Source: Solirubrobacteraceae bacterium (lineage in GTDB: Bacteria > Actinomycetota > Thermoleophilia > Solirubrobacterales > Solirubrobacteraceae). Taken from it: DNA of 46,345 nucleotides. The translations under genes and the position numbers were made by a program. Of this stretch, positions 11,037 through 44,969 are shown one piece after another. How positions within the stretch are numbered: position 1 is the first letter of the stretch; each line of letters opens with the position of its first letter. Under the pieces are notes generated by a model. It was not told the DNA's origin, ran no database searches, and was given only the letters and a program-made list of their open reading frames with translations. The stretch spans positions 1-46,345 of the forward strand of contig JAXDHL010000035.1 of assembly GCA_034664525.1 (NCBI GenBank), given 5' to 3'.

Positions 11037-11037
11037 G

Positions 11038-20005: not shown

Positions 20006-21063
20006 AGCTTCACGGCCTCGTGCTCCTCGGTCCGGCCGCGGTGCGGCGCGGCGTGCGCGCCCGTGGTCGGGAGATGCCCGGCGCGGCTGGGGTCACCCGG
20101 CTCGTAGTGCGAGGGCTCGACGCCGAGCTCGAGCTCGACGCGGCGCACGCGCTCGAACACCCGCTGGAGCATGATCCGCTGGCCGGAGAGCAGGTCGCCG
20201 AGCACGCCCATCGCGGCCAGCACCATGGCGGCGTTGAAGAGCACCGCGCCGAGGATCAGCGACTGGACGTGGCCGCCGCCCTCGCCCTGCACGAACGCGA
20301 CCAGGAAGCGCAGCCAGACCGCGGCGGCGATCAGGAACATCAGCCCGGCCGCCATCATGAACACCTTCAGCGGCTCGTACATCGTGTAGATGCGGAAGAT
20401 CGAGACGCCGTTGCGGCGCACGTAGGACCACATCGACGGGAACAGCCGCGACTCGCGCATCTGCGCGTTGGTGTTGACCGGGACGTGGTCGACCGCGACG
20501 GTGAGCTTGCCGGCCTGGATGATCGTCTCGAGCGTGTAAGTGAACTTCGAGACGACCTGCAGCGACAGCGCCGCCTCGCGGTTGTAGGCGCGGAAGCCGG
20601 ACGTCGTGTCGGGCACGTCGGTGGAGGAGGCCTGGCGCACGACCCACGAGCCGAGCCGCTGCAGCGCCTTCTTGAGCGGCGAGAAGTGCTCGATCGTCTG
20701 GACCTGGCGGTCGCCGACGACCATGTCGGCGCGGCCGGCCAAGATCGGCTCGACGAGCTTGGGGATGTCGCGGGCGTCGTACTGGTTGTCGGCGTCCGTG
20801 TTGACGATCACGTCGGCGCCGAGCTTGAGCGCCGCGTCGAGGCCGGCCTGAAAGCCGGAGGCGAGGCCCTTGTTGTTCGTGAGCCGGACGATGTGGTCGA
20901 CGCCGAGCGCCTTGGCGACCTCGACGGTGTTGTCGGTCGAGCCGTCGTCGATGACGAGCCACTCGACCTCCTCGAAGCCGGCGACCTCGCGCGGGAGGCC
21001 GCGCAGGGTGACGGGGAGGGTGTCCTCCTCGTTGAGGCAGGGGATCTGGATGATGAGCTTCAC
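20002..21063 (-). CDS. GT2-family polyprenyl-phosphate glycosyltransferase (GtrB/DPM1/ArnC-like) with C-terminal TM helices
   Basis: It has a GT-A N-terminus (IIQIPCLNEE, VIDDGSTDNT, NTDADNQY = DxD). Two C-terminal hydrophobic helices (VFMMAAGLMFLIAAAVWL, LILGAVLFNAAMVLAAMGVL) are typical of lipid-phosphate sugar synthases. Confidence 0.85.
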   Translation of the reverse strand: MKLIIQIPCLNEEDTLPVTLRGLPREVAGFEEVEWLVIDDGSTDNTVEVAKALGVDHIVRLTNNKGLASGFQAGLDAALKLGADVIVNTDADNQYDARDIPKLVEPILAGRADMVVGDRQVQTIEHFSPLKKALQRLGSWVVRQASSTDVPDTTSGFRAYNREAALSLQVVSKFTYTLETIIQAGKLTVAVDHVPVNTNAQMRESRLFPSMWSYVRRNGVSIFRIYTMYEPLKVFMMAAGLMFLIAAAVWLRFLVAFVQGEGGGHVQSLILGAVLFNAAMVLAAMGVLGDLLSGQRIMLQRVFERVRRVELELGVEPSHYEPGDPSRAGHLPTTGAHAAPHRGRTEEHEAVKL

Positions 21064-35023: not shown

Positions 35024-35878
35024 TCACGTCGCGCTGATCAGCATCGCTCCGACGAGCGCCAGCGCGACCCCGGCGCGCTGGCTGAGAACGAGATGCTCGC
35101 GCAGGATCAAGGCCGCGAGCAGCACCGTGACCACGGGGTGCAGCGACGCGAGCACGGCGACAAGGCTCACGAGCCCGTCGTGGGTCGCGATCCCATAGAA
35201 GACGTTGGCGGCCAGGTCGAGGATGCCCAGGGCGAGCACGGCCCGACCGGCGCCCGCGGGGACGGTCATGCGGCGCCGGGTGACGAGCGCGGCGGTGAGC
35301 AGCAGCGCCCCCGCGACGCCGCGGGTGACGACGAGCAGCCCCCACAGGTCCTCGGCGGCCGCCCGGTGCACGGCGGCGTCGAGCGCAGCGAGGTTGCCTC
35401 CGACGCCGATCGCGGCGGCAACGGCGAGGACGATGCTCGCCCTGGCGGCCCGCCGCGCGGCCGCGCCGCCCGGCGGCTCGCGCGACGCGAGGACGATGCC
35501 GGCGATGGCGAGCGCGATCCCGGCGACGTGCTGCGGCCCCGGGCGCTCGCCGCCGAGGACCCCGACGGTGACCGGCAGCAGCGCGCTCATCCCCACGATC
35601 GGCGCGACGATGCTCATGGTGCCGACGGCCAGCCCGCGGTAGAACGCCGCCAGCCCGACCGCGTTGGCGGCTCCCGCGAGCGCGGCGTAGCCCACGGCAT
35701 CGCCCGGCGGGAGGTGTGCCCCGGTCGCGCACACGATCACCGTGCCGACGAGGGCGCCGACGGCCTGGCTGCCGATTCCGATCGCCAGCAGCGGGGCGCG
35801 CCGGTTGGCCATTCCGCCGAGGAAGTCGGCGACGCCCCACGCGGTGGCCGAGCAGAGTCCGAGGGCGATCACCAGCAC
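35024..35878 (-). CDS. EamA/DMT-family transporter
   Basis: It has about ten hydrophobic helices in two EamA-like halves. The chosen start is GTG 35878 (VLVIALGLCSATAWGVADFLGG). The 53-codon upstream extension of the ORF track has visibly poor G/C third-position bias (34 of 52 by hand count). Confidence 0.75.
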   Translation of the reverse strand: MLVIALGLCSATAWGVADFLGGMANRRAPLLAIGIGSQAVGALVGTVIVCATGAHLPPGDAVGYAALAGAANAVGLAAFYRGLAVGTMSIVAPIVGMSALLPVTVGVLGGERPGPQHVAGIALAIAGIVLASREPPGGAAARRAARASIVLAVAAAIGVGGNLAALDAAVHRAAAEDLWGLLVVTRGVAGALLLTAALVTRRRMTVPAGAGRAVLALGILDLAANVFYGIATHDGLVSLVAVLASLHPVVTVLLAALILREHLVLSQRAGVALALVGAMLISAT

Positions 35879-36025
35879 CGGCGTGGATCTTGCCTCATGG
35901 GTGACCGTTGCGACTTGGTGGATTCCTCGGAACCGACGGCCGGATTTGCCACGGATCGTGGATAGACCGCCCGCCGCCGCCGTCGTTGACTGCACGGCAG
36001 TTCCCCACCCGAGGAGACGGACTCG
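35879..36025. promoter_or_regulatory. divergent intergenic region: promoter/operator region for the GS-like operon and the EamA gene
   Basis: About 147 nt of non-coding DNA. It has GTGGAT hexamers at 35883, 35918 and 35958, TTGACT at 35986-35991, and the strong RBS GAGGAG (36011-36016) 9 nt before ATG 36026. Confidence 0.35.
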
Positions 36026-37525
36026 ATGGACCATCACACCAACGGCAGCCCGGGCGCCGCAGCGGGCGACCTCGTCACCGACGCCGGAACGGGATCGTCG
36101 TCGGCGGCAGTGCTGACCGACGCCGGCGCCACGCCGCAGGCGGAGATCGAGGTCGCCGCGACGGTGTCACGCGAGGGCGACGGCGAAGCGTGGGCGCGAA
36201 CGCGCGACGAGCTCGCCCGCCGCGGCGTGGACTACTGCCTCGCGGCGTACGTCGACGTGCATGGGGTGCCGAAGGCCAAGGCGGTTCCGGTTGGCCACTT
36301 CACGCGGATGATGAAGGGCTCCGAGCTGTTCACCGGAGCCGCCCTCGACGGACTCGGCCAGGGCCCGAGCGATGACGAGCTGGCGGTGTGGCCGGACCTC
36401 GATGCGATCACGGTCCTGCCCTGGGAACGCACCGTCGCCTGGTGTCCGGGTCAGCTGCACTACCACGGCGAGCCATGGCCGCTGGACTCGCGGACGGTCC
36501 TGCGCCGCCAGCTCGACCGGGCCGCGGCGCTCGGGCTCCGCTTCAACCTCGGGATCGAGACCGAGTTCTATCTCGTGCGCCGCGAGGGCGACGGCATCGT
36601 CCCGGCCAATCCCAAGGACGTGCTGCCCAAGGCGGCCTACGACGTGACGGGGCTGCTCGAGAACCTCGGCTTCATGCACGAGATCGTCGGCCACATGAAC
36701 GAGCTCGGCTGGGACGTGCACTCCTTCGATCACGAGGACGCCAACAGCCAGTTCGAGCTCGACTTCCACTACGCGGACGGCATGGCGATGGCCGACCGCT
36801 ACACGCTGTGGCGGCTGATGGCCAAGACGGTGGCGCGCCGCCACGGGGTCGAGGCCACGTTCATGGCCAAGCCGTACGCCGACCGGACGGGCAACGGCGG
36901 CCACTTCAACATGTCGCTCGCCGACCTGGAGAGTGGCCGCAACGTGTTCGCCGATCCCGGCGATCCGCGCGGCGGCGGCGTGTCGACGCTCGCCTACCAG
37001 TTCATCGCCGGCATCCTGCGGCACGCGCCGGCGATCAGCGCGGTGTGTTCGCCGACCGTCAACTCGTACAAGCGGCTGGTCAAGAGCGGCTCGATGACGG
37101 GCTACACGTGGGCGCCGGTCTACATCTCCTACGGGCGCAACAACCGCACCCACATGCTGCGGCTGCCCTACGGCAGCCCGCGCGTCGAGTCCCGCGCGGT
37201 GGACACCTCGTGCAACCCGTACCTCGCCGCGGCGATGCTGCTCGGGGCCGGGCTGGAGGGGATCGAGCAGAAGCTCGACCCGGGTGACCCGATCCAGCTG
37301 AACATGTACGAGCAGAGCGACGCCCGGCTCGAGGAGCTGCGGGTCGGCGTGCTTCCGCGGACCCTGCTCGAGGCGGTCGAGGCCTTCACCGCCGACGATC
37401 TCGCCGACGACGTCTTCGGGTCCGATCTCAAGCGCGAGTACGCCGAGGTGAAATCGAAGGAGTGGTGGGACTACCACAACACCGTCTCGGCCTGGGAGTA
37501 CGACCGCTACCTGGAGTTCTTCTAG
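36026..37525 (+). CDS. glutamine-synthetase-family ligase (GS-like 1; gamma-glutamyl-amine ligase candidate)
   Basis: GS catalytic-domain motifs are GIETEFYL, KPYADRTGNGGHFNMS (ATP site), NSYKRLV, RNNRTHMLRLP and SCNPYLA. A ~45-aa low-complexity N-terminal extension still shows coding-like codon bias. Confidence 0.85.
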   Translation: MDHHTNGSPGAAAGDLVTDAGTGSSSAAVLTDAGATPQAEIEVAATVSREGDGEAWARTRDELARRGVDYCLAAYVDVHGVPKAKAVPVGHFTRMMKGSELFTGAALDGLGQGPSDDELAVWPDLDAITVLPWERTVAWCPGQLHYHGEPWPLDSRTVLRRQLDRAAALGLRFNLGIETEFYLVRREGDGIVPANPKDVLPKAAYDVTGLLENLGFMHEIVGHMNELGWDVHSFDHEDANSQFELDFHYADGMAMADRYTLWRLMAKTVARRHGVEATFMAKPYADRTGNGGHFNMSLADLESGRNVFADPGDPRGGGVSTLAYQFIAGILRHAPAISAVCSPTVNSYKRLVKSGSMTGYTWAPVYISYGRNNRTHMLRLPYGSPRVESRAVDTSCNPYLAAAMLLGAGLEGIEQKLDPGDPIQLNMYEQSDARLEELRVGVLPRTLLEAVEAFTADDLADDVFGSDLKREYAEVKSKEWWDYHNTVSAWEYDRYLEFF

Positions 37526-37527
37526 CG

Positions 37528-38517
37528 ATGGCCCTCTTCGGTCGCCGGAGCGCGCCGAGCGGCGGCGAGAAGACACGGATCTTCTTCGTCTCCGACGTCC
37601 ATGGCTCGACGGTGTGCTTCAAGAAGTTCATCAACGCCGCGTCGTTCTACGGCGCCGACGTGCTCATCCTGGGCGGTGACGTGACCGGCAAGATGGTCGT
37701 CCCGATCGCCCGCCAGGCCAGCGGGCAGTACCTGACGCAGTTCGCCGGCTCGGAGCACCGCTTCGACAGCGAGGCCGACCTGCGGTCGTTCGTGACGCGG
37801 ACCGAGAACATGGGCTTCTACCCCGCCGTCATGGACGAGGACGAGTTCCTGAGCGCGAAGGCCTCGCCCGAGGCCCAGGACGCGCTCTTCCGGCAGCTCG
37901 TGGAGGAGCGCCTGCGCGAGTGGATCGCCTACGCCGACGAGCGGCTCGCCGACAGCGAGGTGCCCGTCTACGCCGCGCCCGGCAACGACGACTTCCACGA
38001 GGTGGACGACATCCTCGCCTCGTCGAAGCGCATCCGGCTGATCGAGATGCAGGTGGTGCCGCTCGCCGGCCGGTACAAGATCATCACGTCAGGCTGGTCG
38101 AACCCGACGCCCTGGGACACCGACCGGGAGTGCAGCGAGGACGAGCTCGCCGAGCGGCTGGGGGAGATGATCGAGGAGGTCGACGACTTCGACCACTGCA
38201 TCTTCAACCTGCACGTGCCGCCGCACGACGCGACGATCGATCTCTGCCCCAAGCTCGACGAGCACATGCAGGTCGTCTACGACCTCGGCAACCCCGTGAT
38301 GGCCCCAGCCGGGAGCACCGCGGTGCGCGAGGCCATCGAGCGCTACCAGCCCCTGCTCGGGCTTCACGGGCACATCCACGAGGGCCGCGGCGAGGCGCGC
38401 ATCGGCCGCACGGTCTGCCTCAACCCGGGGAGCGTGTACTCGGAGGGCGTGCTGAACGGCCTGCTCGTGACGCTCGAAGGGTCCCGGGTTCGCGATTTCC
38501 ACTTCACACAGGGCTGA
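37528..38517 (+). CDS. calcineurin-like metallophosphoesterase
   Basis: It starts at ATG 37528, 2 nt after the GS-like 1 stop. Motifs are FFVSDVHGS (DxH), GGDVTGK (GD), APGNDD, NLHVPP and LHGHIHEG (GHxH). Confidence 0.85.
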   Translation: MALFGRRSAPSGGEKTRIFFVSDVHGSTVCFKKFINAASFYGADVLILGGDVTGKMVVPIARQASGQYLTQFAGSEHRFDSEADLRSFVTRTENMGFYPAVMDEDEFLSAKASPEAQDALFRQLVEERLREWIAYADERLADSEVPVYAAPGNDDFHEVDDILASSKRIRLIEMQVVPLAGRYKIITSGWSNPTPWDTDRECSEDELAERLGEMIEEVDDFDHCIFNLHVPPHDATIDLCPKLDEHMQVVYDLGNPVMAPAGSTAVREAIERYQPLLGLHGHIHEGRGEARIGRTVCLNPGSVYSEGVLNGLLVTLEGSRVRDFHFTQG

Positions 38518-38539
38518 GGACGAGGAGACGAGGAGAAGC

Positions 38540-40219
38540 ATGTCCACTGCACATGAATCGTCGGGTACCGGTCACAGCGGACTCGCGTCGGGCGCCGTGA
38601 CGACCGGCCTCGGCACCGGCACCGCCGCCGGCGGCGCGGGCGATCGGGTCTTCCTGCGCAAGGCGTCGGGGCTGATCAAGACGGCCGGCACGACCGACAT
38701 CTTCATCTTCAACATCGGCACGATCTCGATCGGCATCGGGATCGGCTCGATCGTGCTCTACGGGCCCTCGGTCTACCCGGGCGGGAATCTCGCGCTCGGC
38801 GCCGTCCTGGCCTGCCTGATGATGGCGCTGATCGCCGGCGGCATGATCGCCTGGACGCTGACCATCCCGCGCTCGGGCGGGATCTACCCGTTCGGAAGCC
38901 GGGCGCTGCCCCCGGCGCTCGCGTTCACGGCGAGCTTCGTCGAGTGCATCTGCTGGCTGTTCCTGCTCTCGGTCGCGGCCTACTGGATCACGACGATCGG
39001 CCTGGCGCCGACCTTCACCGTGCTCGGGACGATGACCGGCCACGGGTGGATGACCACGCTCGGGCAGGACCTGACGCACAAGGGCGTCACGTTCGCCGTC
39101 AGCGGCGTGATGCTCATCATCGCGGCCGCGATCCTCGCCTCGGGAATGCGCCGCTTCTTCGCCTCCCAGAAGCTCGTCTTCGGCGTGGCCATCATTGGCT
39201 CGCTCGTGCTGATCGGCGCCCTGCTGTTCGGCTCGCGCGCACAGTTCGTGGCCAACTTCAACCACGACTTCCACGGGACCGCCTCCTACGCCGGCGTCAT
39301 CGACGCCGCCCACAAGGGCGGCTGGAGCGACCCCGGCTTCTCGCTCAAGCAGACGCTGCTGGCGTCCAACTGGTTCTTCCTGCCGCTGATCGGCGCCGCG
39401 TTCTCGATCGCGATCGGCGGCGAGATCAAGTCGGCGACCAAGGCGCAGCCGTACGGCATGCTGAGCGCGATCGTGGTCAGCGCGGTGATCTGGGTGATCA
39501 CGATGGGCCTCGCGAACAAGGTGTTCGGCTACGAGTTCCTCGGCTCGGTCGGCAACAACAGCCTCAACGGCGGGATGTCGACGCCGACGACGCCGTGGAT
39601 CACGCTGCTGGCCGGCGTGCTCACCGGATCGCCGCTGGTCACGATCATCATCTCGCTGTCCTTCATCGCCTGGATCTGGATGTGGATCCCGGCGATGCAG
39701 GCCTACGTGCAGCGGGCGATGCTCGCATGGTCCTTCGACCGCGTGGCGCCGGCGGCGCTCGGGCGCGTGTCCAGCCGGACGCACACGCCGATCGCCGCGA
39801 TCGCCGTCGTGCTCGCCCTGTCGCTCCTGACGCTCGCGGCGTTCGTGTGGATCAGCTACTTCCAGACGCTGATCGTCTTCATCGAGATCGCGCTGCTCGC
39901 CTGGGGGCTGGTGCTCGGCGCCGGCGTCGTGTTCCCGTACCGGCGACCGGAGATGTACGAGAAGTCGCCGATCGCCAACAAGCGGCTGTTCGGGCTCCCG
40001 TTGATGACCGTGCTGTGCGGCGCCGGCTGCGTCGGGGCGACGTTCTACTTCTTCGTCCTGTTCTTCGACCAGTTCGCCGCCGGCCACGACCCGGTGCGCC
40101 TGGCGATCATGGCCGGCTGCTTCGTCGCGGGCCTGCTGGTGTTCGCCGTCACGCGCTACGTCCGCCGGGGCCAGGGCTTCGACGTCGACCTCGCCTTCAA
40201 GGAGATCCCGATCGAGTAG
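38540..40219 (+). CDS. APC-superfamily amino acid/amine permease
   Basis: 559 aa with about 12-13 TM helices. The N-terminal Gly/Ser/Thr-rich cytoplasmic tail is followed by typical APC helices (IFIFNIGTISIGIGIGS, PRSGGIYPFGS). Confidence 0.8.
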   Translation: MSTAHESSGTGHSGLASGAVTTGLGTGTAAGGAGDRVFLRKASGLIKTAGTTDIFIFNIGTISIGIGIGSIVLYGPSVYPGGNLALGAVLACLMMALIAGGMIAWTLTIPRSGGIYPFGSRALPPALAFTASFVECICWLFLLSVAAYWITTIGLAPTFTVLGTMTGHGWMTTLGQDLTHKGVTFAVSGVMLIIAAAILASGMRRFFASQKLVFGVAIIGSLVLIGALLFGSRAQFVANFNHDFHGTASYAGVIDAAHKGGWSDPGFSLKQTLLASNWFFLPLIGAAFSIAIGGEIKSATKAQPYGMLSAIVVSAVIWVITMGLANKVFGYEFLGSVGNNSLNGGMSTPTTPWITLLAGVLTGSPLVTIIISLSFIAWIWMWIPAMQAYVQRAMLAWSFDRVAPAALGRVSSRTHTPIAAIAVVLALSLLTLAAFVWISYFQTLIVFIEIALLAWGLVLGAGVVFPYRRPEMYEKSPIANKRLFGLPLMTVLCGAGCVGATFYFFVLFFDQFAAGHDPVRLAIMAGCFVAGLLVFAVTRYVRRGQGFDVDLAFKEIPIE

Positions 40220-40225
40220 CGGGAC

Positions 40226-40251
40226 GGCGCCGGGCGCGAGCGCCCGGCGCC
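40226..40251 (+). terminator. perfect 11-bp GC hairpin inside the operon (terminator/attenuator or mRNA-processing element)
   Basis: The structure is GGCGCCGGGCG-cgag-CGCCCGGCGCC, starting 7 nt after the permease stop in a 104-nt gap. No U-tract follows. Confidence 0.4.
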
Positions 40252-40323
40252 TCCGCCCACGGCTCCCGCCCCGGCTCCGCCCGGCTGACCACCAATCGCC
40301 CCCGCAAGCGCTCAGAGAGGCCC

Positions 40324-41100
40324 ATGACCGTCACCAACCAGCAGTTCGTCGACGAGGGGCTCCGCCTCGTCGACGAGGGGGCGGAGCGAGGATTGCGACT
40401 GCGCATCCTCGGCTCGCTCGCCATCCGCCTGCACTGCCCGCAGAACCTTCCGCTGCTGGAGGCGATGGAGCGCGCCGTTCCGGCCGACATCGACTTCGCC
40501 GCCGGGAGCCGGCAGGCGCGGGACGTCGTCCGCTTCCTCAAAGAGCAGGGGTACGTCGAGGACGAGCGGATCACGATCGCGACCGAGGGCACGCGCTACT
40601 GCTTCGAGCACCCGGATACGCGCCTCAGCCTCGACGTGTTCGTGGAGCGCCTGGACTTCTGCCATCGGATCCCCTTCGAGGACCGTCTGGACCTGGACGC
40701 TCCGACCCTGCCCACGCCGGATCTGCTGCTCGGGAAGCTCCAGATCGTCGAGATCAACCTGAAGGACATCCAGGACGCGATCGTCCTGCTGCTCGAGCAC
40801 GCGGTGGTCGATCACCGGAACGGACCGGAGAGCATCGACGCGTCCTACGTCGCCGAGCTCCTGCGCGGCGATTGGGGCTTCCACTACACCGTCATGGAGA
40901 ACCTGGAGAAGGTGCGCCGGTTCATCCCGCAGTTCGGCGCCATCGGCCCCGAGCAGGCGAAGCTGCTCAACGAGCGCATCGACGCCCTCGAACGGGTCAT
41001 CGAGGAGGCGCCGAAGACGCGCAAGTGGCGCATGCGGGCGAAGGTCGGCCCGAAGGTCCGGTGGTATCAGGAGGTCAGCGAGAAGGAAGCGGGGCTCTAG
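40324..41100 (+). CDS. uncharacterised 258-aa protein, possible minimal nucleotidyltransferase fold
   Basis: This is the last 258 codons of the fused 38944..41100 ORF, with strong G/C third-position bias. ILGSLAIRLH...AVPADIDFAAG resembles the G[SG]...DxD signature of pol-beta-type/AbiEii-like nucleotidyltransferases, although the spacing is long. Its stop directly abuts the next ATG (TAGATG). Confidence 0.5.
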   Translation: MTVTNQQFVDEGLRLVDEGAERGLRLRILGSLAIRLHCPQNLPLLEAMERAVPADIDFAAGSRQARDVVRFLKEQGYVEDERITIATEGTRYCFEHPDTRLSLDVFVERLDFCHRIPFEDRLDLDAPTLPTPDLLLGKLQIVEINLKDIQDAIVLLLEHAVVDHRNGPESIDASYVAELLRGDWGFHYTVMENLEKVRRFIPQFGAIGPEQAKLLNERIDALERVIEEAPKTRKWRMRAKVGPKVRWYQEVSEKEAGL

Positions 41101-42459
41101 ATGGTGCAGTCCCTGCTCACCGCCCGCGCGCTCCGCGACGGGAACCCGCCCACGGACCGCGACGGGCTGCTCGCCTGGGTCCAGGAGCGCGGCATCACGC
41201 GCGTGGACCTGAAGATCGGCGACCTCACCGGCCGTCTGCGCCATCTGTCGATGCCGGCGCGCAAGCTCGCGGACGCGCTCGACCACGGTGTCGGCTTCGC
41301 CGGCAGCCACTACGGCTTCAGCGGACCGGTCGACGAGGACATGGTCATGGTCCCGGACGCGTCGACGGCCTGGGCCGATCCCTTCGCCGAGGTCCCTGCG
41401 GTGTCGTTCCTCGCGCAGCCGGTGCGCGCCGGCACCACCGAGCGCTTCGCCCGCGACCCGCGCGCCGTCGCCGAGCGGGCGGAGGCGTACCTCGTGTCGA
41501 CCGGTGTGGCGACGCACAGCCTCTGGCTGCCGGAGCTCGAGTTCCACCTGGCCCCGGCTGGGGGGCTGGTGCACGACGGCGGTGCGGCGGCGCACCGCGA
41601 CGGCTATCACGCCAGCCCGCCCGTCGATCGGCACGCCGGCTTCCGGGCCCGCGCGGTGCAGCTGCTGGAGGCGGCGGGCGTCCCGGTCAAGTACGACCAC
41701 CACGAGACGGGCGTCGAGGGTCAGATGGAGATCGAGCTCGACTTCGGCGGTCTGGTCCGCACCGCCGACGTCGTGCTGCTCGGCAAGTACATCCTGCGCA
41801 ACCTCGCCGTCCAGGAGGGGCTGCAGGCCGTGTTCCTCCCCAAGCCGATGGCGGACGCGTCGGGCAACGGCATGCATGTGCACCTGAAGCTGCTCGACGA
41901 CGAGCGCCCCGTGTTCGCCGGCGACGGCTACGCCGGGCTGTCGCGGGTCGCCCTCTCGTTCGTCGCCGGTGTGCTCGTGCACGTGCGCTCGCTCGCCGCG
42001 TTCACCAACCCGTCGACGAACTCCTACCGGCGCCTCGTGCCGGACATGGAGGCTCCCGTCTCCGCCAGCTTCGCCCGCGGCGACCGGACGGCCGCCATCC
42101 GCATCCCCGGCTACGCGGTGCGGCCCGCCGACCGGCGCATGGAGTACCGGCCGCTGGACGCCACGGCGAACGCCTACCTCGCGTTCTCCGCACTGCTGCT
42201 CGCGGGCCTCGACGGCGTGGAGCGCGGGCTGGATCCCGTGGCGCTCGGCTTCGATCCCGCCGCCGAGCCGCCCACGCGCTTCCCGCGCCACCTCGAGGAG
42301 GCGCTCGACGCGCTGGAGGACGACCACGAGTACCTCGAGCGGGGCGGGGTGTTCCCCACGATGCTGCTCGAGGAGTGGCACGCGACGAAGCGCGAGGAGG
42401 TGCGCAGGCTCGAGCTGCGCCCACACCCCGCCGAGTTCGCGATGTACCTGGATCTGTGA
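41101..42459 (+). CDS. glutamine-synthetase-family ligase (GS-like 2, type-I-like)
   Basis: Motifs are LPELEFHL, KPMADASGNGMHVHLK (ATP site), NPSTNSYRRLVP, DRTAAIRIP and ATANAYLA. The beta-grasp N-domain is present (DMVMVPDASTAWADPF). Confidence 0.85.
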   Translation: MVQSLLTARALRDGNPPTDRDGLLAWVQERGITRVDLKIGDLTGRLRHLSMPARKLADALDHGVGFAGSHYGFSGPVDEDMVMVPDASTAWADPFAEVPAVSFLAQPVRAGTTERFARDPRAVAERAEAYLVSTGVATHSLWLPELEFHLAPAGGLVHDGGAAAHRDGYHASPPVDRHAGFRARAVQLLEAAGVPVKYDHHETGVEGQMEIELDFGGLVRTADVVLLGKYILRNLAVQEGLQAVFLPKPMADASGNGMHVHLKLLDDERPVFAGDGYAGLSRVALSFVAGVLVHVRSLAAFTNPSTNSYRRLVPDMEAPVSASFARGDRTAAIRIPGYAVRPADRRMEYRPLDATANAYLAFSALLLAGLDGVERGLDPVALGFDPAAEPPTRFPRHLEEALDALEDDHEYLERGGVFPTMLLEEWHATKREEVRRLELRPHPAEFAMYLDL

Positions 42460-43145
42460 GCGAGTCCGTGGCATTCCCGGAGTTCGCGCTGGCCGACCTC
42501 GGTGGCCGGATCTGGACCCGCGCCGACCTCAGCGGGGTCCGCACCGTCGCCTTCTGCTTCGCGAGCTGGTGAACGTGCAAGGACGACCTGCCCGTGTGGC
42601 AGCGGTACTGGGAGCAGCGAGGCCGTGACTTCACGATGCTGGCCATCGCTCAGGACGCGCGAGGCGAAGCCGCGGTCGCGGAGAGCGTGCGCGCGTACGG
42701 TGTCGCCTTCCCCGTTCTGCTCGATCCGGCGAGCACGATCGCCGCGGCGCTCGGCTTCCGCATCGTGCCGTCGGGCTTCCTCGTGGACGAGGACGCCCGG
42801 ATCCGCCGGCGGCACACCGAGGACTTCTCGATCGGGGATCCGCGCGTGCGGGCCACGGTGGACGCGTTCCTCGACGGGCGCGCGGTGGAGCCAGGACCCC
42901 GGCAGGAGCAGATGGATCCCCGCGCCCTGGAGCAGTTCGCCGAGGGCGTGGCCGCCCAGATGGCCGGAGACGGGCCGCGGGCGCTTCGACTCTGGCGCCG
43001 GGCGCTCGAGCTCGACCCGGAGAACTTCCTCATCCGGTCGCAGATCTGGTCCGCGGAGCACCCGGACCGGTTCTGGCCGGTCGTCGACCGCCAATGGCAG
43101 GAGCTGCAACTGATGAAGGACGGATATGACAAGCCCCTTCCTTGA
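42456..43145 (+). CDS. ResA/TlpA-like thioredoxin-fold redoxin with C-terminal TPR-like segment, interrupted by in-frame TGA at the catalytic position (candidate selenoprotein, or pseudogene)
   Basis: GTG 42456 overlaps the GS-like 2 stop (GTGA). The frame reads VSESVAFPEFALADLGGRIWTRADLSGVRTVAFCFASW-TGA-TCKDDLPVWQRYWEQRGRDFTMLAIAQD... in one frame with ORF 42594..43145. Codon bias is continuous across the TGA. Confidence 0.6.
42570..42602 (+). other. candidate UGA-selenocysteine recoding site plus downstream hairpin
   Basis: TGA 42570-42572 replaces the first active-site Cys (FASW-U-TC-KDDLP). A hairpin, CTGCC-cgtgt-GGCAG (42588-42602), starts 15 nt downstream and has GU in its loop. I can pair only 5 bp by eye. 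Confidence 0.35.
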
Positions 43146-43653
43146 CCTGGGGCTCCCCGGCGCCGTGTCGCCGGGCAGGCTCTCGCGGCAGGAGGTCGAG
43201 GAGCTCCTCGAGTTGCGGCTCATCGCGAACCTCGCGACCCTGGACGCGCACGGCGGGGTCCACCTGGCGGCGATGTGGTTCCGGCGCGAGGGCGACACGC
43301 TGCTGATGCCGACCTCCCAGCACACCCGCAAGGCCCGCAACCTCCGGCGCCGGGCGCACGCGGCGGTGACGATCGACCAGTCGCGTAACGGCCTGGATCT
43401 GCGCGGCGTGCTCGTCCGCGGCGCGGTCGAGCTGGTCACCGGCGAGCCGGCGCGGGCGCTCAATCGCTCCGTGCACCTGCGCTACGTGACCGAGGCGGGG
43501 CTCGCGGACCCCGAGGTCGCCGCATACCTGTCCGGCGGCGACGACCTGACCATCCGCGTCCACATGAACGAGATCGTGACCTGGAATCTCGCCGACCGGC
43601 CGGCCGGCCGCGCACTGCGCGCGAGCGGCCAGGTCCATCCGCTCGACACCTGA
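43126..43653 (+). CDS. pyridoxamine 5'-phosphate oxidase-family (PPOX/F420- or FMN-binding split-barrel) protein
   Basis: 175 aa. LIANLATLDAHGGVHLAAMWF...KARNLRRRAHAAVTID is typical of the PPOX split barrel. It has the RBS AAGGA and overlaps the redoxin end by 20 nt. Confidence 0.75.
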   Translation: MTSPFLDLGLPGAVSPGRLSRQEVEELLELRLIANLATLDAHGGVHLAAMWFRREGDTLLMPTSQHTRKARNLRRRAHAAVTIDQSRNGLDLRGVLVRGAVELVTGEPARALNRSVHLRYVTEAGLADPEVAAYLSGGDDLTIRVHMNEIVTWNLADRPAGRALRASGQVHPLDT

Positions 43654-43670
43654 ACCCGAGGAGAACCACC

Positions 43671-44969
43671 ATGACCGTGCTCCATCCCCCTGTGCGTCAA
43701 GCCGCCAACGAGGAGGCGCTCCAGCGCTTCTATGACGCCGACCCCATCCTCGTGGACGTCCGGCCGGCCGTCGAGGTCGTCCCCGGCATGACCCGGGACA
43801 CGATCCTGACCTCCGGCGCGCCGATGCCCTGGGACGCCTACACCGGCGGGCAGCGGAGCGCCGTCATCGGGGGTGCCCTGTACGAGGGGCTGGCCGGCAG
43901 CGCGGAGGAGGCCGACGAGAAGCTGCGGGACGGCCGGATCCGGCTCGCCGCGTGCCACGACCACAGCTGCGTCGGCTCGCTCGCCGGCATCTACACCGCC
44001 TCGATGCCCGTCTTCGTGGTCGAGAACCCGCGGCACGGCAACGTCGCCTACTGCAACTGCTTCGAAGGCCCGTCGCGCAAGCGGCTCAACTACGGCGTCT
44101 ACGACGACGAGGTCCGCGACAGCCTGATCTGGCTCGAGCAGGTGGCGGCCCCGGTGCTGGCCGCGGCACTGCGCGAGATCGACGGCGGAGTGCCGCTGCG
44201 TCCGATCATGCGCCGGGCGCTGAACCTCGGCGACGAGCTGCACAGCCGCAACACCGCGGCGACGATGCTCTTCACGCGCGAGCTCTACCTGCACCTGTTG
44301 CACGTCGCCGAGCTGATGCCCGAGCAGGTCCGCGAGACCGTGTCGTTCCTGGGCAGCAACGACTACTTCTTCCTGCGCCTCTCGATGGCGGCGTCGAAGG
44401 CGATCGCCGACGCCGCGCGGGACGTCGAGGGCTCCTCGCTCGTGACCGCCATGACCTTCTCGTGCCAGGAGTTCGCCATCCGGGTGAGCGGGCTCGGCGA
44501 CGAGTGGTTCCGGGCCCCGCTGCCGGGGATCGACGCGAAGCTCTTCGACGGCTACACGGTCGACGACATCGAGTTCATGGGCGGCGAGAGCATCATCAAC
44601 GAGACCGTCGGCCTCGGCGGGTTCGCCCAGGCGGCCGCCTTCCCGCTGCAGGACTATCAGGGCGGTGACGCCGATGCCATGGTGCGCATGAACCTCGCGA
44701 TGTACGAGATCACGGCGGGCGAGCACCCCGTGTTCAAGATCCCGTACCTCGGGTTCCGCGGCACGCCGACGGGCATCGACGTGCACCGGGTCGTCGCGAC
44801 GGGGACCGTCCCGGTGATGGACATCGGGGTCGCGGGCCGCACGGGCGGCCAGATCGGCGCCGGCGTCCTGCGGGCGCCGCTGGGCTGCTTCGAGGCCGCC
44901 GCGGACGCCTACGCCCGGGCGTACCCGTCCGAGGCGCCGGCCACCGGCGGGCAGCCGACGGTTCTGTGA
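43671..44969 (+). CDS. DUF1116 / YlbE-like protein
   Basis: 432 aa. By recollection it resembles the YlbE family found beside fdrA in allantoin/oxamate clusters (CHDHSCVGSLAGI, GESIINETVGLGGFA). It has the RBS GAGGAG. The family assignment needs a profile search. Confidence 0.55.
   Translation: MTVLHPPVRQAANEEALQRFYDADPILVDVRPAVEVVPGMTRDTILTSGAPMPWDAYTGGQRSAVIGGALYEGLAGSAEEADEKLRDGRIRLAACHDHSCVGSLAGIYTASMPVFVVENPRHGNVAYCNCFEGPSRKRLNYGVYDDEVRDSLIWLEQVAAPVLAAALREIDGGVPLRPIMRRALNLGDELHSRNTAATMLFTRELYLHLLHVAELMPEQVRETVSFLGSNDYFFLRLSMAASKAIADAARDVEGSSLVTAMTFSCQEFAIRVSGLGDEWFRAPLPGIDAKLFDGYTVDDIEFMGGESIINETVGLGGFAQAAAFPLQDYQGGDADAMVRMNLAMYEITAGEHPVFKIPYLGFRGTPTGIDVHRVVATGTVPVMDIGVAGRTGGQIGAGVLRAPLGCFEAAADAYARAYPSEAPATGGQPTVL

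What the first reader, a model, noticed from the sequence alone, without database searches (positions are those of the whole stretch)
36026..44969. Candidate undescribed nitrogen/amine-processing operon built around two divergent GS-like ligases
Eight plus-strand genes are packed with gaps of -20 to +22 nt, apart from one 104-nt gap that holds a perfect hairpin. In order they are: GS-like 1, metallophosphoesterase, APC permease, unknown possible NTase-fold protein, GS-like 2, redoxin with in-frame TGA, PPOX-family flavoprotein, and DUF1116/YlbE-like protein.

Known GS-like catabolic systems pair the ligase with gamma-glutamyl hydrolases/amidotransferases and aldehyde or amine dehydrogenases. 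Examples are the gamma-glutamylpolyamine and gamma-glutamylethanolamide synthetases GlnA3/GlnA4 of Streptomyces, PuuA, GmaS and IpuC. None of those partner enzymes is present here. The partners are instead a phosphoesterase, a redox pair and a YlbE-like protein, whose family is linked to oxamate/carbamate chemistry.

The two ligases differ from each other: KPYADRTGNGGHFNMS versus KPMADASGNGMHVHLK at the ATP site, and GS-like 1 has a long N-terminal extension. This suggests two different substrates or steps. The combination, its dedicated giant regulator, and its inserted position all point to a pathway that has not been described.
Basis: inference. Interest (0 to 1): 0.7.

Follow-up and report, generated by a model that had tools for sequence, protein, structure and literature searches.

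The report
Widespread uncharacterised organic-nitrogen scavenging gene cluster
The eight genes are a real, tightly packed cassette whose four-gene core (an amine-ligating glutamine-synthetase relative, a phosphoesterase, a permease and an unknown nucleotidyltransferase) recurs in hundreds of soil and marine bacterial species, usually beside enzymes that split guanidine-type compounds, and it matches no described pathway.

Summary
In detail: eight + strand genes lie at 36026-44969, with the stated gaps, hairpin and domains.

The conserved unit is not "two GS-like ligases". It is GS1-MPE-APC-NT4, present in 33-35 of 35 fully flanked related loci from Actinomycetota, Alpha- and Gammaproteobacteria, Chloroflexota and others. 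A stand-alone AllG/DUF1116 protein accompanies it in 27 of 35 loci, and a GdmH-like ureohydrolase in 23 of 35. That ureohydrolase is absent from this window.

- **GS1** is a GmaS-family ligase (393 bits to a glutamate-methylamine ligase). Its catalytic residues are intact but its amine pocket is altered.
- **GS2** is a cluster-specific offshoot of type I GS that has lost the ammonium-binding Asp50'.
- **The redoxin TGA** is very probably selenocysteine: 8 orthologues keep TGA, 3 have Cys codons, and an invariant hairpin follows.
- **AllG** lacks its AllF and AllH partners, so this is not oxamate carbamoyltransferase.
- **NT4** is an uncharacterised Pol-beta-fold nucleotidyltransferase family with no Pfam model (about 2,500 clusters at 50% identity).

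My best reading is a nitrogen-scavenging island for small cationic nitrogen compounds such as substituted guanidines or alkylamines. The roles of MPE, NT4 and AllG remain unknown. No matching pathway turned up in my limited searches.

The parts
31241..35020 (+). Large regulator (1259 aa): PocR sensory domain, GAF, GGDEF-like domain and a PucR-type C-terminal HTH
   Evidence: Pfam hits are PocR 3.3e-39, GAF_2 5e-18, GGDEF_2 4.3e-11 and HTH_30 1.1e-21. Orthologues lie beside the cluster in 8-9 actinobacterial loci. Proteobacterial versions carry a TetR regulator instead.
35024..36037 (-). EamA/DMT-family transporter, divergent from GS1 (its true start is probably further in)
   Evidence: Pfam EamA, 5.4e-20. 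EamA-family genes of a different lineage occur in 31 of 80 related loci. No similarity to the window's copy was found at E<=1e-4.
36026..37525 (+). GS1: GmaS-family (NCBI 'type III GS') gamma-glutamyl-amine ligase with an altered amine pocket
   Evidence: TIGR03105 scores 546 bits against a cut-off of 469.6. The best PDB hits are 9QUR glutamate-methylamine ligase (393 bits) and 7CQL RhGmaS. Asp177, Glu186, Arg312, Lys30' and Trp300 are conserved. Gln175->Ser, Asn188->Asp and Tyr174->His. The signature [HY]S[FL]DHED..QFExDF occurs in about 55 orthologues.
37528..38517 (+). MPE: metallophosphoesterase of the aq_1956/TT1561 type, substrate unknown
   Evidence: Pfam Metallophos, 1.8e-7. The motifs D-x-H, GD, GNDD and GHIH are invariant. 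The AF2 model has pLDDT 80.5. The best Foldseek hits are the uncharacterised 2YVT and 1UF3, followed by Mre11 and LpxH. At least 7,991 homologues were found.
38540..40219 (+). APC-superfamily permease (559 aa), very divergent
   Evidence: Pfam AA_permease, 1.1e-8. There is no NCBIfam hit and no PDB sequence hit. It is conserved directly after MPE in 33 of 35 fully flanked loci.
40226..40251 (+). Perfect 12+12 palindrome with a 2-nt loop in the 104-nt APC-NT4 gap; candidate intra-operon stem-loop or T-less terminator
   Evidence: Read directly from the sequence and recovered in the MFE fold. A perfect stem of at least 8 bp occurs in this gap in 11 of 57 related loci. It is not called by the terminator scan because there is no T run.
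40324..41100 (+). NT4: uncharacterised Pol-beta-fold nucleotidyltransferase family (about 257 aa) with no Pfam model
   Evidence: No Pfam or NCBIfam hit. Invariant G30-S31, D55-x-D57 and D104. The AF2 model has pLDDT 81. Foldseek gives only weak NTase hits (MenT, ANT(2''), TUTases; TM<0.5). The family spans 346 species genomes and 2,552 clusters at 50% identity.
41101..42459 (+). GS2: cluster-specific GSI-derived ligase that has lost the ammonium-binding Asp50'
   Evidence: TIGR00653 scores 354.6 bits, below the cut-off of 429. E129, E131, Y179, E212, E220, H269, R321, E327, E357 and R359 are conserved. D50'->A, S53'->H and Y397->F. All of the roughly 20 close clusters carry 'GFAGSHYG', and seven of the close clusters match NT4 homologues in longest-contig length, so they probably share contigs. 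The next relatives are ordinary GSI that keep Asp. Its start abuts the NT4 stop.
42456..43145 (+). RDX: cytoplasmic thioredoxin-fold protein plus TPR, with UGA (42570-42572) read as selenocysteine in a W-U-T-C motif
   Evidence: Pfam AhpC-TSA 7e-11 and Redoxin 6e-10. The best NCBIfam hit is the selenoprotein family NF041054 'WAxxUGC', at 94 bits, below its cut-off. Eight of 11 orthologues have TGA and three have TGC or TGT at this codon.
42588..42602 (+). SECIS-like hairpin starting 15 nt after the UGA (5 bp here, 6 bp in the other UGA-bearing orthologues; loop CGUGU)
   Evidence: RNAalifold on 9 UGA-bearing sequences gives 6 invariant pairs, with the outermost broken only in the window, and no covariation. 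The single-sequence fold is not exceptional.
43126..43653 (+). PPOX-class flavin/deazaflavin protein
   Evidence: Pfam PNPOx_N, 2.7e-13. TIGR03618 (F420-dependent PPOX class) scores 61.9 bits, below its cut-off of 79. It is present in 12 actinobacterial-type loci. Proteobacterial versions carry an FMN reductase instead.
43671..44969 (+). AllG/DUF1116-like protein without AllF or AllH partners
   Evidence: PF06545, 2.9e-74. It is 37% identical to E. coli YlbE/AllG. The best PDB hit is the uncharacterised 3CLQ. No FdrA, YlbF or carbamate kinase homologue was found in the window or in 84 loci. It lies within 10 kb of the core in 27 of 35 fully flanked loci. A second copy sits directly after a second GS-like gene in several loci.

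Best explanation
The cassette is one lineage's version of a widespread, horizontally mobile, uncharacterised nitrogen-scavenging island for small cationic organic nitrogen compounds. The most likely substrates are substituted guanidines and the alkylamines released from them.

**Proposed flow**
1. The divergent APC permease imports the compound.
2. In most genomes a GdmH-like ureohydrolase splits an N-substituted guanidine into urea plus a primary amine. Its guanidine-restricting Trp is replaced by Ser or Thr. In this window that enzyme is missing, so it must act elsewhere or be dispensable.
3. The GmaS-family ligase GS1 traps the amine (or a related nitrogen nucleophile) on glutamate, at the cost of ATP.
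4. The stand-alone AllG-like protein acts with the ligase on a carbamoyl/ureido-type intermediate.
5. A redox pair handles an accompanying redox step. Here the pair is a selenocysteine redoxin plus a PPOX flavoprotein; in Proteobacteria it is an FMN reductase.
6. GS2 is a sub-clade add-on for a second nitrogen nucleophile.
7. MPE and NT4 form an inseparable unit with the permease. They either process a phosphoester- or nucleotide-linked form of the substrate, or act as a nucleotidylylation/removal switch.

**What is shown:** gene content, synteny, family assignments, active-site residues and the Sec/Cys pattern.

**What is inferred:** the substrate class, the order of steps, and every role assigned to MPE, NT4, AllG, RDX, PPOX and GS2.
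For: **Conserved synteny across phyla.** NT4 homologues occur in 346 species genomes. In 35 loci with full +-10 kb flanks the counts are NT4 35, MPE 35, GS1 34, APC 33, AllG 27, ARG 23, and AllG or ARG 33.

**GS1 is GmaS-family with an intact catalytic triad but a changed amine pocket** (residue roles from PMC7948447).

**The linked ureohydrolase resembles guanidinase but fails its specificity test.**
- It scores 481 and 471 bits against the N. inopinata (9FEK) and Synechocystis guanidinases, about 62% identity to 9FEK by eye.
- It keeps the metal ligands, T105, H222 and E344.
- All 35 GdmH-type copies in which the position could be read have Ser or Thr at W313.
- By the criteria of PMC11410670 that means 'not guanidinase'.

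**Other guanidine-type enzymes sit in the same islands.**
- A DmgH/MefH-alpha-like tandem ureohydrolase (652 bits to 8RYI_B) lies in the same island in L072 (PMC11399263).
- Paralogous MPE-APC-NT4 trios sit beside a creatinase-like M24 enzyme, DMGDH-like enzymes and a choline/ethanolamine-kinase-like gene.
- In a haloarchaeal plasmid the trio lies beside an Fe-ADH and an ALDH. All of these are small N-methyl, amino-alcohol or guanidino metabolism.

**Supporting context.**
- APC permeases are the predicted guanidine importers next to guanidinase in comammox bacteria and AOB.
- Extra GS-like genes sit directly upstream of extra AllG copies (GS1'-AllG') in L004, L007, L008, L042 and L082, with an arginase-family gene immediately downstream in each. 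A further GS-like gene lies next to DmgH-type ureohydrolases in L029, L040 and L058.
- The regulators are catabolic-type sensors: PocR-GAF-PucR, or TetR with a BetI-type C-terminal domain.
Against: - The window itself has no ureohydrolase; recG follows AllG directly.
- No guanidine riboswitch or any other Rfam element was found in the window or in 7 loci.
- GS1's pocket differs from true GmaS at Gln175 and Asn188, so methylamine is not assured.
- No gamma-glutamyl-amide hydrolase or NMG-pathway genes are linked, so the fate of a glutamylated product is unexplained.
- The three most conserved partners (MPE, NT4, APC) have no demonstrated role in any guanidine or amine pathway.
- Structure searches gave no functional lead for MPE or NT4.
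- All related loci except the Halobellus plasmid are MAG contigs.
- There are no expression or biochemical data.
Confidence: 0.45

Rival explanations
1. Regulated-transporter model. MPE and NT4 are not pathway enzymes. They form a covalent-modification switch, with NT4 nucleotidylylating and MPE removing the nucleotide. The switch controls the APC permease and/or the GS-like ligase, by analogy with GlnE on GS and with GlnD/PII on AmtB. The variable neighbouring enzymes do the catabolism.
For: - The MPE-APC-NT4 trio is the tightest unit. It recurs as distant paralogues beside quite different catabolic genes: GS-like plus AllG, DMGDH-like plus a kinase, creatinase-like, and ADH plus ALDH.
- NT4 has an intact Pol-beta catalytic triad.
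- MPE has the YfcE/Icc-like phosphodiesterase motifs.
- The NT4 stop abuts the GS2 start, and NT4 lies in a GS-rich operon.
Against: - There is no PII-like protein and no recognisable target loop.
- The Tyr at the GlnE-site position is conserved in GS1 but also in non-adenylylated GmaS and GSI-alpha. GS2 has Phe at that position.
- No structural similarity to GlnE or GlnD was found beyond the generic fold.
Confidence: 0.2
2. Phospho-amine salvage model. The permease imports a zwitterionic organophosphate amine, such as phosphoethanolamine, phosphocholine, a phosphagen such as phosphocreatine, or guanidinoethyl phosphodiesters of the lombricine type. MPE removes the phosphate. The ureohydrolase removes the amidino group as urea. 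GS1 glutamylates the freed amino-alcohol or amine.
For: - A phosphoesterase is always adjacent to the permease.
- Paralogous trios lie next to a choline/ethanolamine-kinase-like gene, a creatinase-like gene, and GbsB/GbsA-like Fe-ADH and ALDH genes.
- The TetR regulator has a BetI-type C-terminal domain.
- GS-like glutamylation of ethanolamine has a precedent in GlnA4 (PMC6529630, listed).
Against: - The model gives NT4 and AllG no role.
- MPE's His-less GNDD motif and its YfcE-like hits favour diesters over monoesters.
- APC-family transport of phosphorylated substrates is unusual. This rests on my own knowledge and was not tested.
Confidence: 0.15
3. Biosynthetic cluster. The ligases, NTase, phosphoesterase, acyltransferase-like hydrolases and redox proteins assemble a small gamma-glutamyl or nucleotide-activated metabolite. 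This could be a compatible solute, a signal or an antimetabolite. It is exported by the APC or EamA transporters.
For: - Accessory genes include a MetX-like acyltransferase-fold protein, alpha/beta hydrolases, EamA transporters, and LysR and TetR regulators.
- Known systems offer precedents for ligase, NTase and hydrolase chemistry on glutamine derivatives. This rests on my own knowledge (Campylobacter phosphoramidate biosynthesis); those enzymes are not homologous to these.
Against: - Ureohydrolases, creatinase-like enzymes and DMGDH-like enzymes are catabolic.
- The PucR-type and TetR/BetI-type regulators, and the distribution in oligotrophic soil and marine taxa, fit nutrient scavenging.
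- No core biosynthetic scaffold enzyme is conserved.
Confidence: 0.1
4. Ordinary nitrogen assimilation. GS1 and GS2 are simply extra glutamine synthetase isoenzymes, and the neighbours are unrelated genes that happen to be adjacent.
For: Both proteins carry full Gln-synt_C domains, and source databases name them 'glutamine synthetase'.
Against: - Both lack the strictly conserved ammonium-binding Asp50'. GS1 also lacks the flap Glu.
- Gene order is conserved across at least 6 phyla.
Confidence: 0.03
5. Allantoin/oxalurate branch. AllG marks an oxamate carbamoyltransferase pathway.
For: PF06545 scores 2.9e-74, with 37% identity to E. coli AllG. A PucR-type regulator is present.
Against: E. coli OXTCase needs AllF, AllG and AllH together (PMC11326118). 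No AllF, AllH or AllK homologue exists in the window or in 84 related loci.
Confidence: 0.02

Closest known systems
GmaS / N-methylglutamate pathway (gamma-glutamylmethylamide synthetase; Methylovorus mays 9QUR, Rhodovulum 7CQL)
   Same: GS1 scores above the TIGR03105 trusted cut-off and scores 393 bits against 9QUR. It keeps catalytic Asp177, Glu186 and Arg312, plus Lys30' and Trp300. Like GmaS, it lacks the GS Asp50' and the flap Glu.
   Different: The amine-pocket residues Gln175 and Asn188, and also Tyr174, are replaced by Ser, Asp and His throughout the GS1 clade. No mgsABC or mgdABCD genes are linked. The partners are MPE, APC, NT4 and AllG instead.
Gamma-glutamylation catabolic pathways (PuuA; Streptomyces GlnA2, GlnA3 and GlnA4; IpuC; aniline/naphthylamine glutamylating enzymes)
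   Same: A GS-like ligase without the ammonium site, encoded with a transporter and a dedicated regulator, presumably trapping an amine on glutamate.
   Different: No gamma-glutamyl hydrolase (GATase-1) and no aldehyde or alcohol dehydrogenases are present in the window. GS1 scores far below the PuuA model (252 against 650 bits).
Guanidine utilisation module of comammox Nitrospira and cyanobacteria (APC permease or ABC transporter plus the Ni-guanidinase GdmH)
   Same: In 39 of 80 related loci an APC permease is linked to a close GdmH homologue (471-481 bits) with all metal ligands, T105, H222 and E344.
   Different: W313, needed for guanidine specificity, is Ser or Thr in every GdmH-type cluster copy where it could be read. 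No guanidine riboswitch is present. The ureohydrolase is missing from this window. Four or five extra conserved genes have no counterpart in the known module.
Oxamate carbamoyltransferase AllFGH (E. coli FdrA-YlbE-YlbF)
   Same: A full-length AllG/DUF1116 protein, 37% identical to E. coli AllG.
   Different: AllF, AllH and carbamate kinase are absent from the window and from all related loci. Here AllG is repeatedly paired with GS-like ligases instead.
GlnE/GlnD nucleotidylylation control of nitrogen assimilation
   Same: A Pol-beta-fold nucleotidyltransferase and a phosphoesterase are encoded with GS-family enzymes and a nitrogen-compound transporter.
   Different: No detectable homology exists beyond the generic NTase fold. 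The removal enzyme would be a calcineurin-like phosphoesterase rather than an NTase or HD domain. No target is identified.
ResA-like 'WAxxUGC' selenoproteins (NCBIfam NF041054)
   Same: A thioredoxin-fold protein with U-x-C in place of the redox Cys pair. The UGA aligns with Cys codons in orthologues, and a hairpin lies downstream.
   Different: The score is 94 bits against a cut-off of 300. The motif is F-[AS]-[ST]-W-U-T-C. There is no N-terminal membrane or secretion segment. A C-terminal TPR region is present. The gene is embedded in a catabolic-type operon.

Membership tests
GmaS (gamma-glutamylmethylamide synthetase; NCBIfam TIGR03105 'type III glutamate-ammonia ligase') - GS1 | Whole-protein score above the curated TIGR03105 cut-off | tested here: met
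   546.4 bits against a cut-off of 469.6.
GmaS - GS1 | Catalytic Asp177, Glu186 and Arg312 (RhGmaS numbering, PMC7948447) | tested here: met
   All three are conserved in the alignment to 7CQL and 9QUR, and in about 55 orthologues.
GmaS - GS1 | Loss of the GS ammonium-site Asp50' and the flap Glu (Ala48' and Trp300 in RhGmaS) | tested here: met
   Thr at the Ala48' position. Trp is conserved in 'TGYTWAP'.
GmaS - GS1 | Methylamine-pocket residues Gln175 and Asn188 (plus Tyr174) | tested here: not met
   Ser, Asp and His respectively. The substitution is clade-wide.
GmaS - GS1 | Linkage to N-methylglutamate pathway genes (mgsABC, mgdABCD) | tested here: not met
   None of the cassette genes, and none of the conserved neighbour families that I scanned, carries those domains. 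An unlinked copy elsewhere in the genome cannot be excluded.
GmaS - GS1 | ATP-dependent glutamate-methylamine ligase activity | not testable with these tools
   Requires an enzyme assay.
Type I glutamine synthetase (GlnA, TIGR00653) - GS2 | Score above the curated cut-off | tested here: not met
   354.6 bits against 429.15.
Type I glutamine synthetase - GS2 | Metal, ATP and glutamate ligands and the flap Glu (E129, E131, E212, E220, H269, R321, E327, R339, E357, R359) | tested here: met
   All are conserved in the alignment to S. typhimurium GS, 2GLS.
Type I glutamine synthetase - GS2 | Ammonium-binding Asp50' (and Ser53') | tested here: not met
   Ala and His ('GFAGSHYG') in the window and in all 10 close orthologues that were read. 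The next relatives keep Asp.
Type I glutamine synthetase - GS2 | Tyr397 adenylylation site (GSI-beta) | tested here: not met
   Phe at the aligned position, and the loop is shortened.
Oxamate carbamoyltransferase AllFGH | AllG (PF06545) subunit | tested here: met
   2.9e-74, with 37% identity to E. coli AllG.
Oxamate carbamoyltransferase AllFGH | AllF (FdrA) and AllH (YlbF) subunits, all three required for activity (PMC11326118) | tested here: not met
   tblastn with E. coli FdrA, YlbF and YbcF gave no hit at E<=1e-5 in the window or in 84 loci. YlbE gave 59 hits.
Guanidinase GdmH (for the cluster-linked ureohydrolase in related loci; not in the window) | Binuclear-metal ligands, Thr105, His222 and Glu344 | tested here: met
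   Conserved in the ~390-440-aa GdmH-type copies. The short 334-337-aa copies (L007, L008, L042) have H182D.
Guanidinase GdmH | Trp313 (Synechocystis Trp305), required for guanidine specificity (PMC11410670) | tested here: not met
   Ser or Thr in all 35 GdmH-type cluster-linked copies where the position was readable.
Bacterial selenoprotein (Sec-redoxin; NF041054-like) - RDX | In-frame UGA aligned with Cys codons in orthologues at a redox-motif position | tested here: met
   Eight TGA and three TGC/TGT, in the motif W-U/C-T-C.
Bacterial selenoprotein - RDX | SECIS stem-loop shortly downstream of the UGA | tested here: inconclusive
   An invariant 6-bp stem with a 5-nt G/U-containing loop lies 14 nt after the UGA in 8 of the 9 sequences; the window keeps 5 of the 6 pairs (15 nt after the UGA). 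There is no covariation because the stem is invariant. Cys-type orthologues encode a similar peptide.
Bacterial selenoprotein - RDX | NF041054 curated cut-off | tested here: not met
   94 bits against 300. It is a related family, not a member.
Bacterial selenoprotein - RDX | selA, selB, selC and selD in the genome | not testable with these tools
   No tRNA genes occur in the window. The rest of the genome is not available.
Pol-beta-superfamily nucleotidyltransferase - NT4 | hG[GS] motif, DxD and a third carboxylate | tested here: met
   Invariant G30-S31, D55-I-D57 and D104 in 12 diverse sequences.
Pol-beta-superfamily nucleotidyltransferase - NT4 | NTase fold | tested here: met
   The AF2 model has pLDDT 81. 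All top Foldseek hits are NTases, but only one has E<=0.001, and TM is 0.3-0.5. No specific subfamily could be assigned.
Gamma-glutamyl-amine catabolic operons (Puu, GlnA3/GlnA4, Ipu) | Gamma-glutamyl-amide hydrolase plus aldehyde or amine dehydrogenases next to the ligase | tested here: not met
   No such domains occur in the eight genes or among the conserved neighbour families.

The most novel reading that the evidence does not exclude
The recurrent GS-like/AllG pairing may encode a biotin-independent, ATP-driven route for assimilating urea-type or guanidino nitrogen through an N-acyl-urea intermediate.

In this reading the GS-like ligase condenses glutamate with urea, or with a related amide or guanidine nucleophile released by the linked ureohydrolase. 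The product would be a gamma-glutamyl-ureide. The stand-alone AllG then phosphorolyses this N-acylurea, just as OXTCase phosphorolyses oxalurate. The products would be glutamine plus carbamoyl phosphate.

In parallel, MPE and NT4 would form a previously unknown nucleotidylylation switch on the permease or the ligase.
Probability: 0.08. Interest if true: 0.85.

Novelty: new variant of a known kind. Interest (0 to 1): 0.66.

Why it matters
If the reading holds, this is a common but unstudied way for soil and marine bacteria to obtain nitrogen from small guanidino or alkylamine compounds. Hosts include Solirubrobacterales, Gaiellales, Hyphomicrobiales, Rhodospirillales and Acidiferrobacterales.

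Such compounds include methylated guanidines, breakdown products of creatine and arginine, and perhaps pollutants related to metformin or dimethylguanidine.

It would assign functions to several large 'hypothetical' families:
- the NT4 nucleotidyltransferase family, with about 2,500 clusters at 50% identity and no Pfam model;
- a metallophosphoesterase family with thousands of members;
- stand-alone DUF1116/AllG proteins;
- a GmaS-like clade that NCBI's model would name 'type III glutamine synthetase'.

It would also add a new selenoprotein family in Actinomycetota. Environmental surveys use gmaS as a marker of methylamine use (PMC7948447). Because GS1 scores above the GmaS-type model's cut-off, similarity-based surveys could count this clade as methylamine users.

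Tried and rejected
**Riboswitches.** I looked for guanidine or other riboswitches with Rfam at gathering threshold in the window and in 7 diverse loci. Only tRNAs were found.

**Structure-based function for NT4 and MPE.** The AF2 models were good (pLDDT about 81). Foldseek against the PDB gave only generic NTase hits for NT4 and uncharacterised aq_1956/TT1561, Mre11 and LpxH hits for MPE.

**Permease.** A PDB sequence search for the APC protein gave no hit.

**Terminator and promoter scans.** No sigma-70-like promoter was found. Only two weak intragenic terminator-like sites appeared, no more than in shuffles. The hairpin-containing gap folds no better than shuffled sequence.

**SECIS.** The single-sequence fold after the UGA was unremarkable. 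Only the comparative view was informative.

**Literature.** Searches were limited to open-access text.
- 'DUF1116' returned 7 papers, none about this cluster.
- GmaS plus metallophosphoesterase returned nothing.
- A poorly chosen 'AllG' search returned only noise.
- Guanidine hydrolase plus glutamine synthetase returned nothing relevant.
- The guanidine review and the comammox paper do not mention these partner genes.

**Plasmid search with NT4.** It found one distant haloarchaeal trio.

**Rejected readings.** Ordinary GS isoenzymes; the AllFGH oxalurate pathway; and a canonical NMG methylamine pathway. I considered a MenT-like toxin reading for NT4, since MenT was the top Foldseek hit. I rejected it because TM was below 0.5 and the operon context is metabolic.

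**Not done.** I did not test whether the window's permease is homologous to the comammox guanidine permease, because I had no sequence for the latter.

Full report

Yes. The window is 72% G+C, and its best relatives are Solirubrobacterales and other Actinomycetota. Codon-position GC and ORF listing give eight consecutive + strand genes between 36026 and 44969.

- GS1 (36026-37525): Gln-synt_C.
- A calcineurin-like metallophosphoesterase, MPE (37528-38517).
- A divergent APC permease (38540-40219).
- A 258-aa protein with no family hit, NT4 (40324-41100).
- GS2 (41101-42459): Gln-synt_N plus Gln-synt_C.
- A thioredoxin-fold/TPR protein, RDX, interrupted by TGA at 42570-42572 (42456-43145).
- A PNPOx-like protein, PPOX (43126-43653).
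- An AllG/DUF1116 protein (43671-44969).

Intergenic distances are +2, +22, +104, 0, -4, -20 and +17 nt. The 104-nt gap contains a perfect 12+12 palindrome at 40226-40251.

Upstream lie a 1259-aa PocR-GAF-GGDEF-like-PucR regulator and a divergent EamA transporter. The flanks are a DAK2/FakA-like gene and recG. The rest of the window is housekeeping: rsmB, rpe, an Mce operon, ribD, ribBA and a Ser/Thr kinase. The cassette is 3-8 points lower in G+C than its flanks.

**2. Is it a conserved unit?**

I used the unknown protein NT4 as the anchor.
- It has 660 homologues in the 90%-clustered collection, almost all 257 aa and unnamed.
- It is encoded in 346 species-representative genomes.
- A profile of it finds 2,552 clusters at 50% identity, 711 of them at E<=1e-30.

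I mapped the window's proteins onto the 80 best loci and clustered all ORFs. These loci come from Solirubrobacterales, Gaiellales, many Alphaproteobacteria (including Hyphomicrobium and Methyloceanibacter), Rhodospirillales, Acidiferrobacterales, Dehalococcoidia, Thermomicrobiales and Dormibacteraceae.

In the 35 loci with full +-10 kb flanks the counts are:

| Gene family | Loci (of 35) |
|---|---|
| NT4 | 35 |
| MPE | 35 |
| GS1 | 34 |
| APC | 33 |
| AllG | 27 |
| Arginase-family protein (ARG) | 23 |
| AllG or ARG | 33 |

The order is almost always GS1-MPE-APC-NT4.

Lineage-specific additions differ.
- RDX and PPOX, and the giant regulator, occur only in actinobacterial-type versions.
- Proteobacterial versions have a TetR regulator with a BetI-type C-terminal domain, an FMN reductase, two alpha/beta-fold proteins, EamA and LysR.

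GS2 belongs to a small clade of about 20 clusters. Seven of them share the longest-contig length with an NT4 homologue, and L010 shows GS2 directly after NT4, so the clade appears tied to this cluster. So the cassette is real and ancient, but it is not built around two ligases.

**3. What the individual parts are**

*GS1* scores 546 bits on TIGR03105 (cut-off 469.6). Its closest solved structures are a glutamate-methylamine ligase (9QUR, 393 bits) and Rhodovulum GmaS (7CQL). I used the residue roles established for RhGmaS (PMC7948447).
- GS1 keeps catalytic Asp177, Glu186 and Arg312, as well as Lys30' and Trp300.
- Like GmaS, it lacks the GS Asp50' and the flap Glu.
- The amine-pocket residues Gln175 and Asn188, and Tyr174, are Ser, Asp and His.
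- This signature is shared by about 55 orthologues and differs from true GmaS.
- GS1 is therefore a GmaS-family ligase with a probably different amine.

*GS2* retains every metal, ATP and glutamate ligand and the flap Glu327 of type I GS. However, Asp50' is Ala, Ser53' is His and Tyr397 is Phe. All 10 close orthologues that I read share 'GFAGSHYG', while the next relatives are ordinary GSI with Asp.

*NT4* has invariant G-S, D-x-D and a third Asp. Its confident AF2 model matches only generic Pol-beta nucleotidyltransferases.

*MPE* has the standard metallophosphoesterase motifs with GNDD. It resembles only uncharacterised aq_1956 and TT1561.

*AllG* is 37% identical to E. coli AllG. OXTCase needs AllF, AllG and AllH together (PMC11326118). 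No AllF, AllH or AllK homologue exists in the window or in 84 loci.

*RDX.* The TGA aligns with TGA in 8 orthologues and with TGC or TGT in 3. It lies within a W-U/C-T-C motif, and the best NCBIfam hit is the selenoprotein family 'WAxxUGC'. An invariant 6-bp hairpin follows 14 nt after the UGA in the other UGA-bearing orthologues; the window keeps 5 of its pairs. This is the classic Sec/Cys signature. The Sec machinery cannot be checked in the window.

**4. Functional clues from relatives**

The linked arginase-family protein scores 481 and 471 bits against the N. inopinata (9FEK) and Synechocystis guanidinases, about 62% identity to 9FEK by eye.
- All 35 GdmH-type copies in which the position could be read keep the metal ligands, T105, H222 and E344.
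- All of them have Ser or Thr in place of Trp313.
- That residue, together with Thr105, defines guanidine specificity. Sequences lacking it are classed 'not guanidinase' (PMC11410670).
- A smaller residue there suggests a substituted guanidine as substrate.

In comammox bacteria and AOB the predicted guanidine importer next to guanidinase is also an APC permease.

Other guanidine-related enzymes appear in these islands.
- In L072 the island also holds a tandem ureohydrolase pair. The catalytic member scores 652 bits against MefH/DmgH-alpha. Dimethylguanidine hydrolases are known from Hyphomicrobiales (PMC11399263).
- In L082 the island carries three GS-like genes, two AllG genes, two arginase-family genes and a ZnuABC-like metal transporter.
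- Extra GS-like genes sit directly upstream of extra AllG copies in L004, L007, L008, L042 and L082, with an arginase-family gene immediately downstream. A further GS-like gene lies next to DmgH-type ureohydrolases in L029, L040 and L058.

Distant paralogous MPE-APC-NT4 trios lie beside other small-amine enzymes:
- a creatinase-like M24 enzyme (L003);
- DMGDH-like enzymes and a choline/ethanolamine-kinase-like gene (L011, L018);
- on a Halobellus limi plasmid, an Fe-alcohol dehydrogenase and an aldehyde dehydrogenase.

The common theme is small cationic nitrogen compounds: guanidines, N-methyl amines and amino alcohols.

**5. Most likely mechanism**

Shown: the synteny, the family assignments, the residue patterns and the Sec/Cys alternation. 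Everything below is inferred.

1. The permease imports a small organic nitrogen cation.
2. Where present, the W313S/T ureohydrolase releases urea and a primary amine.
3. GS1 ligates that amine (or another nitrogen nucleophile) to glutamate.
4. AllG acts with the ligase on a carbamoyl/ureido-type compound.
5. A redox pair handles a redox step.
6. GS2 extends the nucleophile range in one sub-clade.

The roles of MPE and NT4 are open. They could process a phosphoester- or nucleotide-linked substrate. They could instead form a nucleotidylylation switch, by analogy with GlnE and GlnD.

I put 0.45 on the general reading of a guanidine-derivative or alkylamine scavenging island with a glutamylating ligase. 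Any specific substrate is much less certain. Methylguanidine is attractive because it would give methylamine plus urea. That activity is known biochemically (Nakajima 1980, as cited in PMC12623156). To my knowledge it has no assigned gene; I did not verify this.

Weaknesses of the model:
- The window has no ureohydrolase.
- No riboswitch was found.
- No gamma-glutamyl hydrolase or NMG genes are linked.
- Nearly all the comparative data come from MAGs.

**6. Comparison with known systems and novelty**

The cassette works like gamma-glutamylation pathways and guanidine-utilisation modules, but it fails a defining test for each named family.

| Known system | Where this cassette fails |
|---|---|
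| GmaS | Amine-pocket residues and NMG partner genes |
| GlnA | Asp50' and the curated cut-off |
| AllFGH | AllF and AllH |
| GdmH | Trp313 |
| Puu / GlnA3-4 | Hydrolase and dehydrogenases |

NCBIfam has no model for NT4, APC or this AllG clade. Source names are 'hypothetical protein', 'Icc-related predicted phosphoesterase' and 'glutamine synthetase'. My open-access literature searches found no description of the cluster. I rate it a new variant of a known kind, namely ATP-dependent glutamylation-type nitrogen scavenging. It includes components of unknown function that could turn out to be categorically new.

**7. Verdict**

- Observation: confirmed.
- Interpretation: partly supported.
- Interest: 0.66. 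The system is widespread, conserved across phyla and uncharacterised. It has a clear experimental path and a bonus selenoprotein. The chemistry is unresolved, and all the evidence is comparative.

Noticed in passing
window 42570-42602 (and L003, L005, L006, L010, L054, L062, L065, L080): The redoxin's in-frame TGA alternates with Cys codons among orthologues and is followed by an invariant hairpin. This is a probable new Sec-containing thioredoxin-fold/TPR family in Actinomycetota and Dormibacteraceae. It is related to NCBIfam NF041054 but falls below that model's cut-off.
   Followed up: partly
L072 14958-17097 (-); also L058 17588-20136 and L029/L040 at about 19430-20500: These are tandem arginase-family genes, one with degenerate metal ligands. 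In L072 the catalytic member scores 652 bits against metformin/dimethylguanidine hydrolase alpha (8RYI_B). The pair lies a few kb from the core cluster and, in L029, L040 and L058, next to a further GS-like gene.
   Followed up: partly
L081 (Halobellus limi plasmid NZ_CP031312.1, 386259-389795): A haloarchaeal plasmid from a cultured strain carries a distant MPE / NT4-like / APC trio (NT4 32% identical). It lies next to an iron-containing alcohol dehydrogenase, an aldehyde dehydrogenase and an IclR regulator. The trio therefore spans Bacteria and Archaea and exists in an isolate.
   Followed up: partly
L003 8304-13245 (-); L018 6294-13613; L011 3364-10762: Paralogous MPE-APC-NT4 trios (25-45% identical to the window's) sit beside a creatinase-like M24 protein (L003). 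In L018 and L011 they sit beside DMGDH-like FAD/GCV_T enzymes, and in L018 also a choline/ethanolamine-kinase-like gene.
   Followed up: partly
L082 2931-5658 (GCA_039745175.1): A ZnuABC-type metal ABC transporter and a GntR regulator lie between a GS-like/arginase pair and the core cluster. They might supply Ni or Mn to the ureohydrolases.
   Followed up: no
APC-NT4 gaps of L025, L032, L034, L047 (and L020): A nearly identical perfect hairpin, GAGGAGCGGGC...GCCCGCTCCTC, recurs in the APC-NT4 intergenic gap of several alphaproteobacterial loci. The gap is typically 100-200 nt in Proteobacteria.
   Followed up: no
window 36026-36160: GS1's first ~45 residues are Ala/Gly/Thr/Ser-rich and not conserved in orthologues. 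The ATG has a GAGGAG Shine-Dalgarno site 8 nt upstream. The maximal EamA ORF on the opposite strand overlaps it, so the true divergent promoter region is unclear.
   Followed up: partly
window 6405-8081 (-): A fusion of a cyclic-nucleotide-binding domain with a pyridine-nucleotide-disulphide oxidoreductase (558 aa).
   Followed up: no
window 9573-17157 (-): At least four consecutive MlaD/Mce-domain genes form an Mce-type lipid-uptake operon. Two large ORFs on the opposite strand (8309-9238 and 14670-15758) have atypical codon-position GC and are probably shadows of further Mce genes.
   Followed up: no
window 37000-41000: G+C drops to 0.68-0.69, against 0.72-0.77 in the flanks. The cassette sits between a DAK2/FakA-like gene and recG. 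Both points are consistent with horizontal acquisition.
   Followed up: partly
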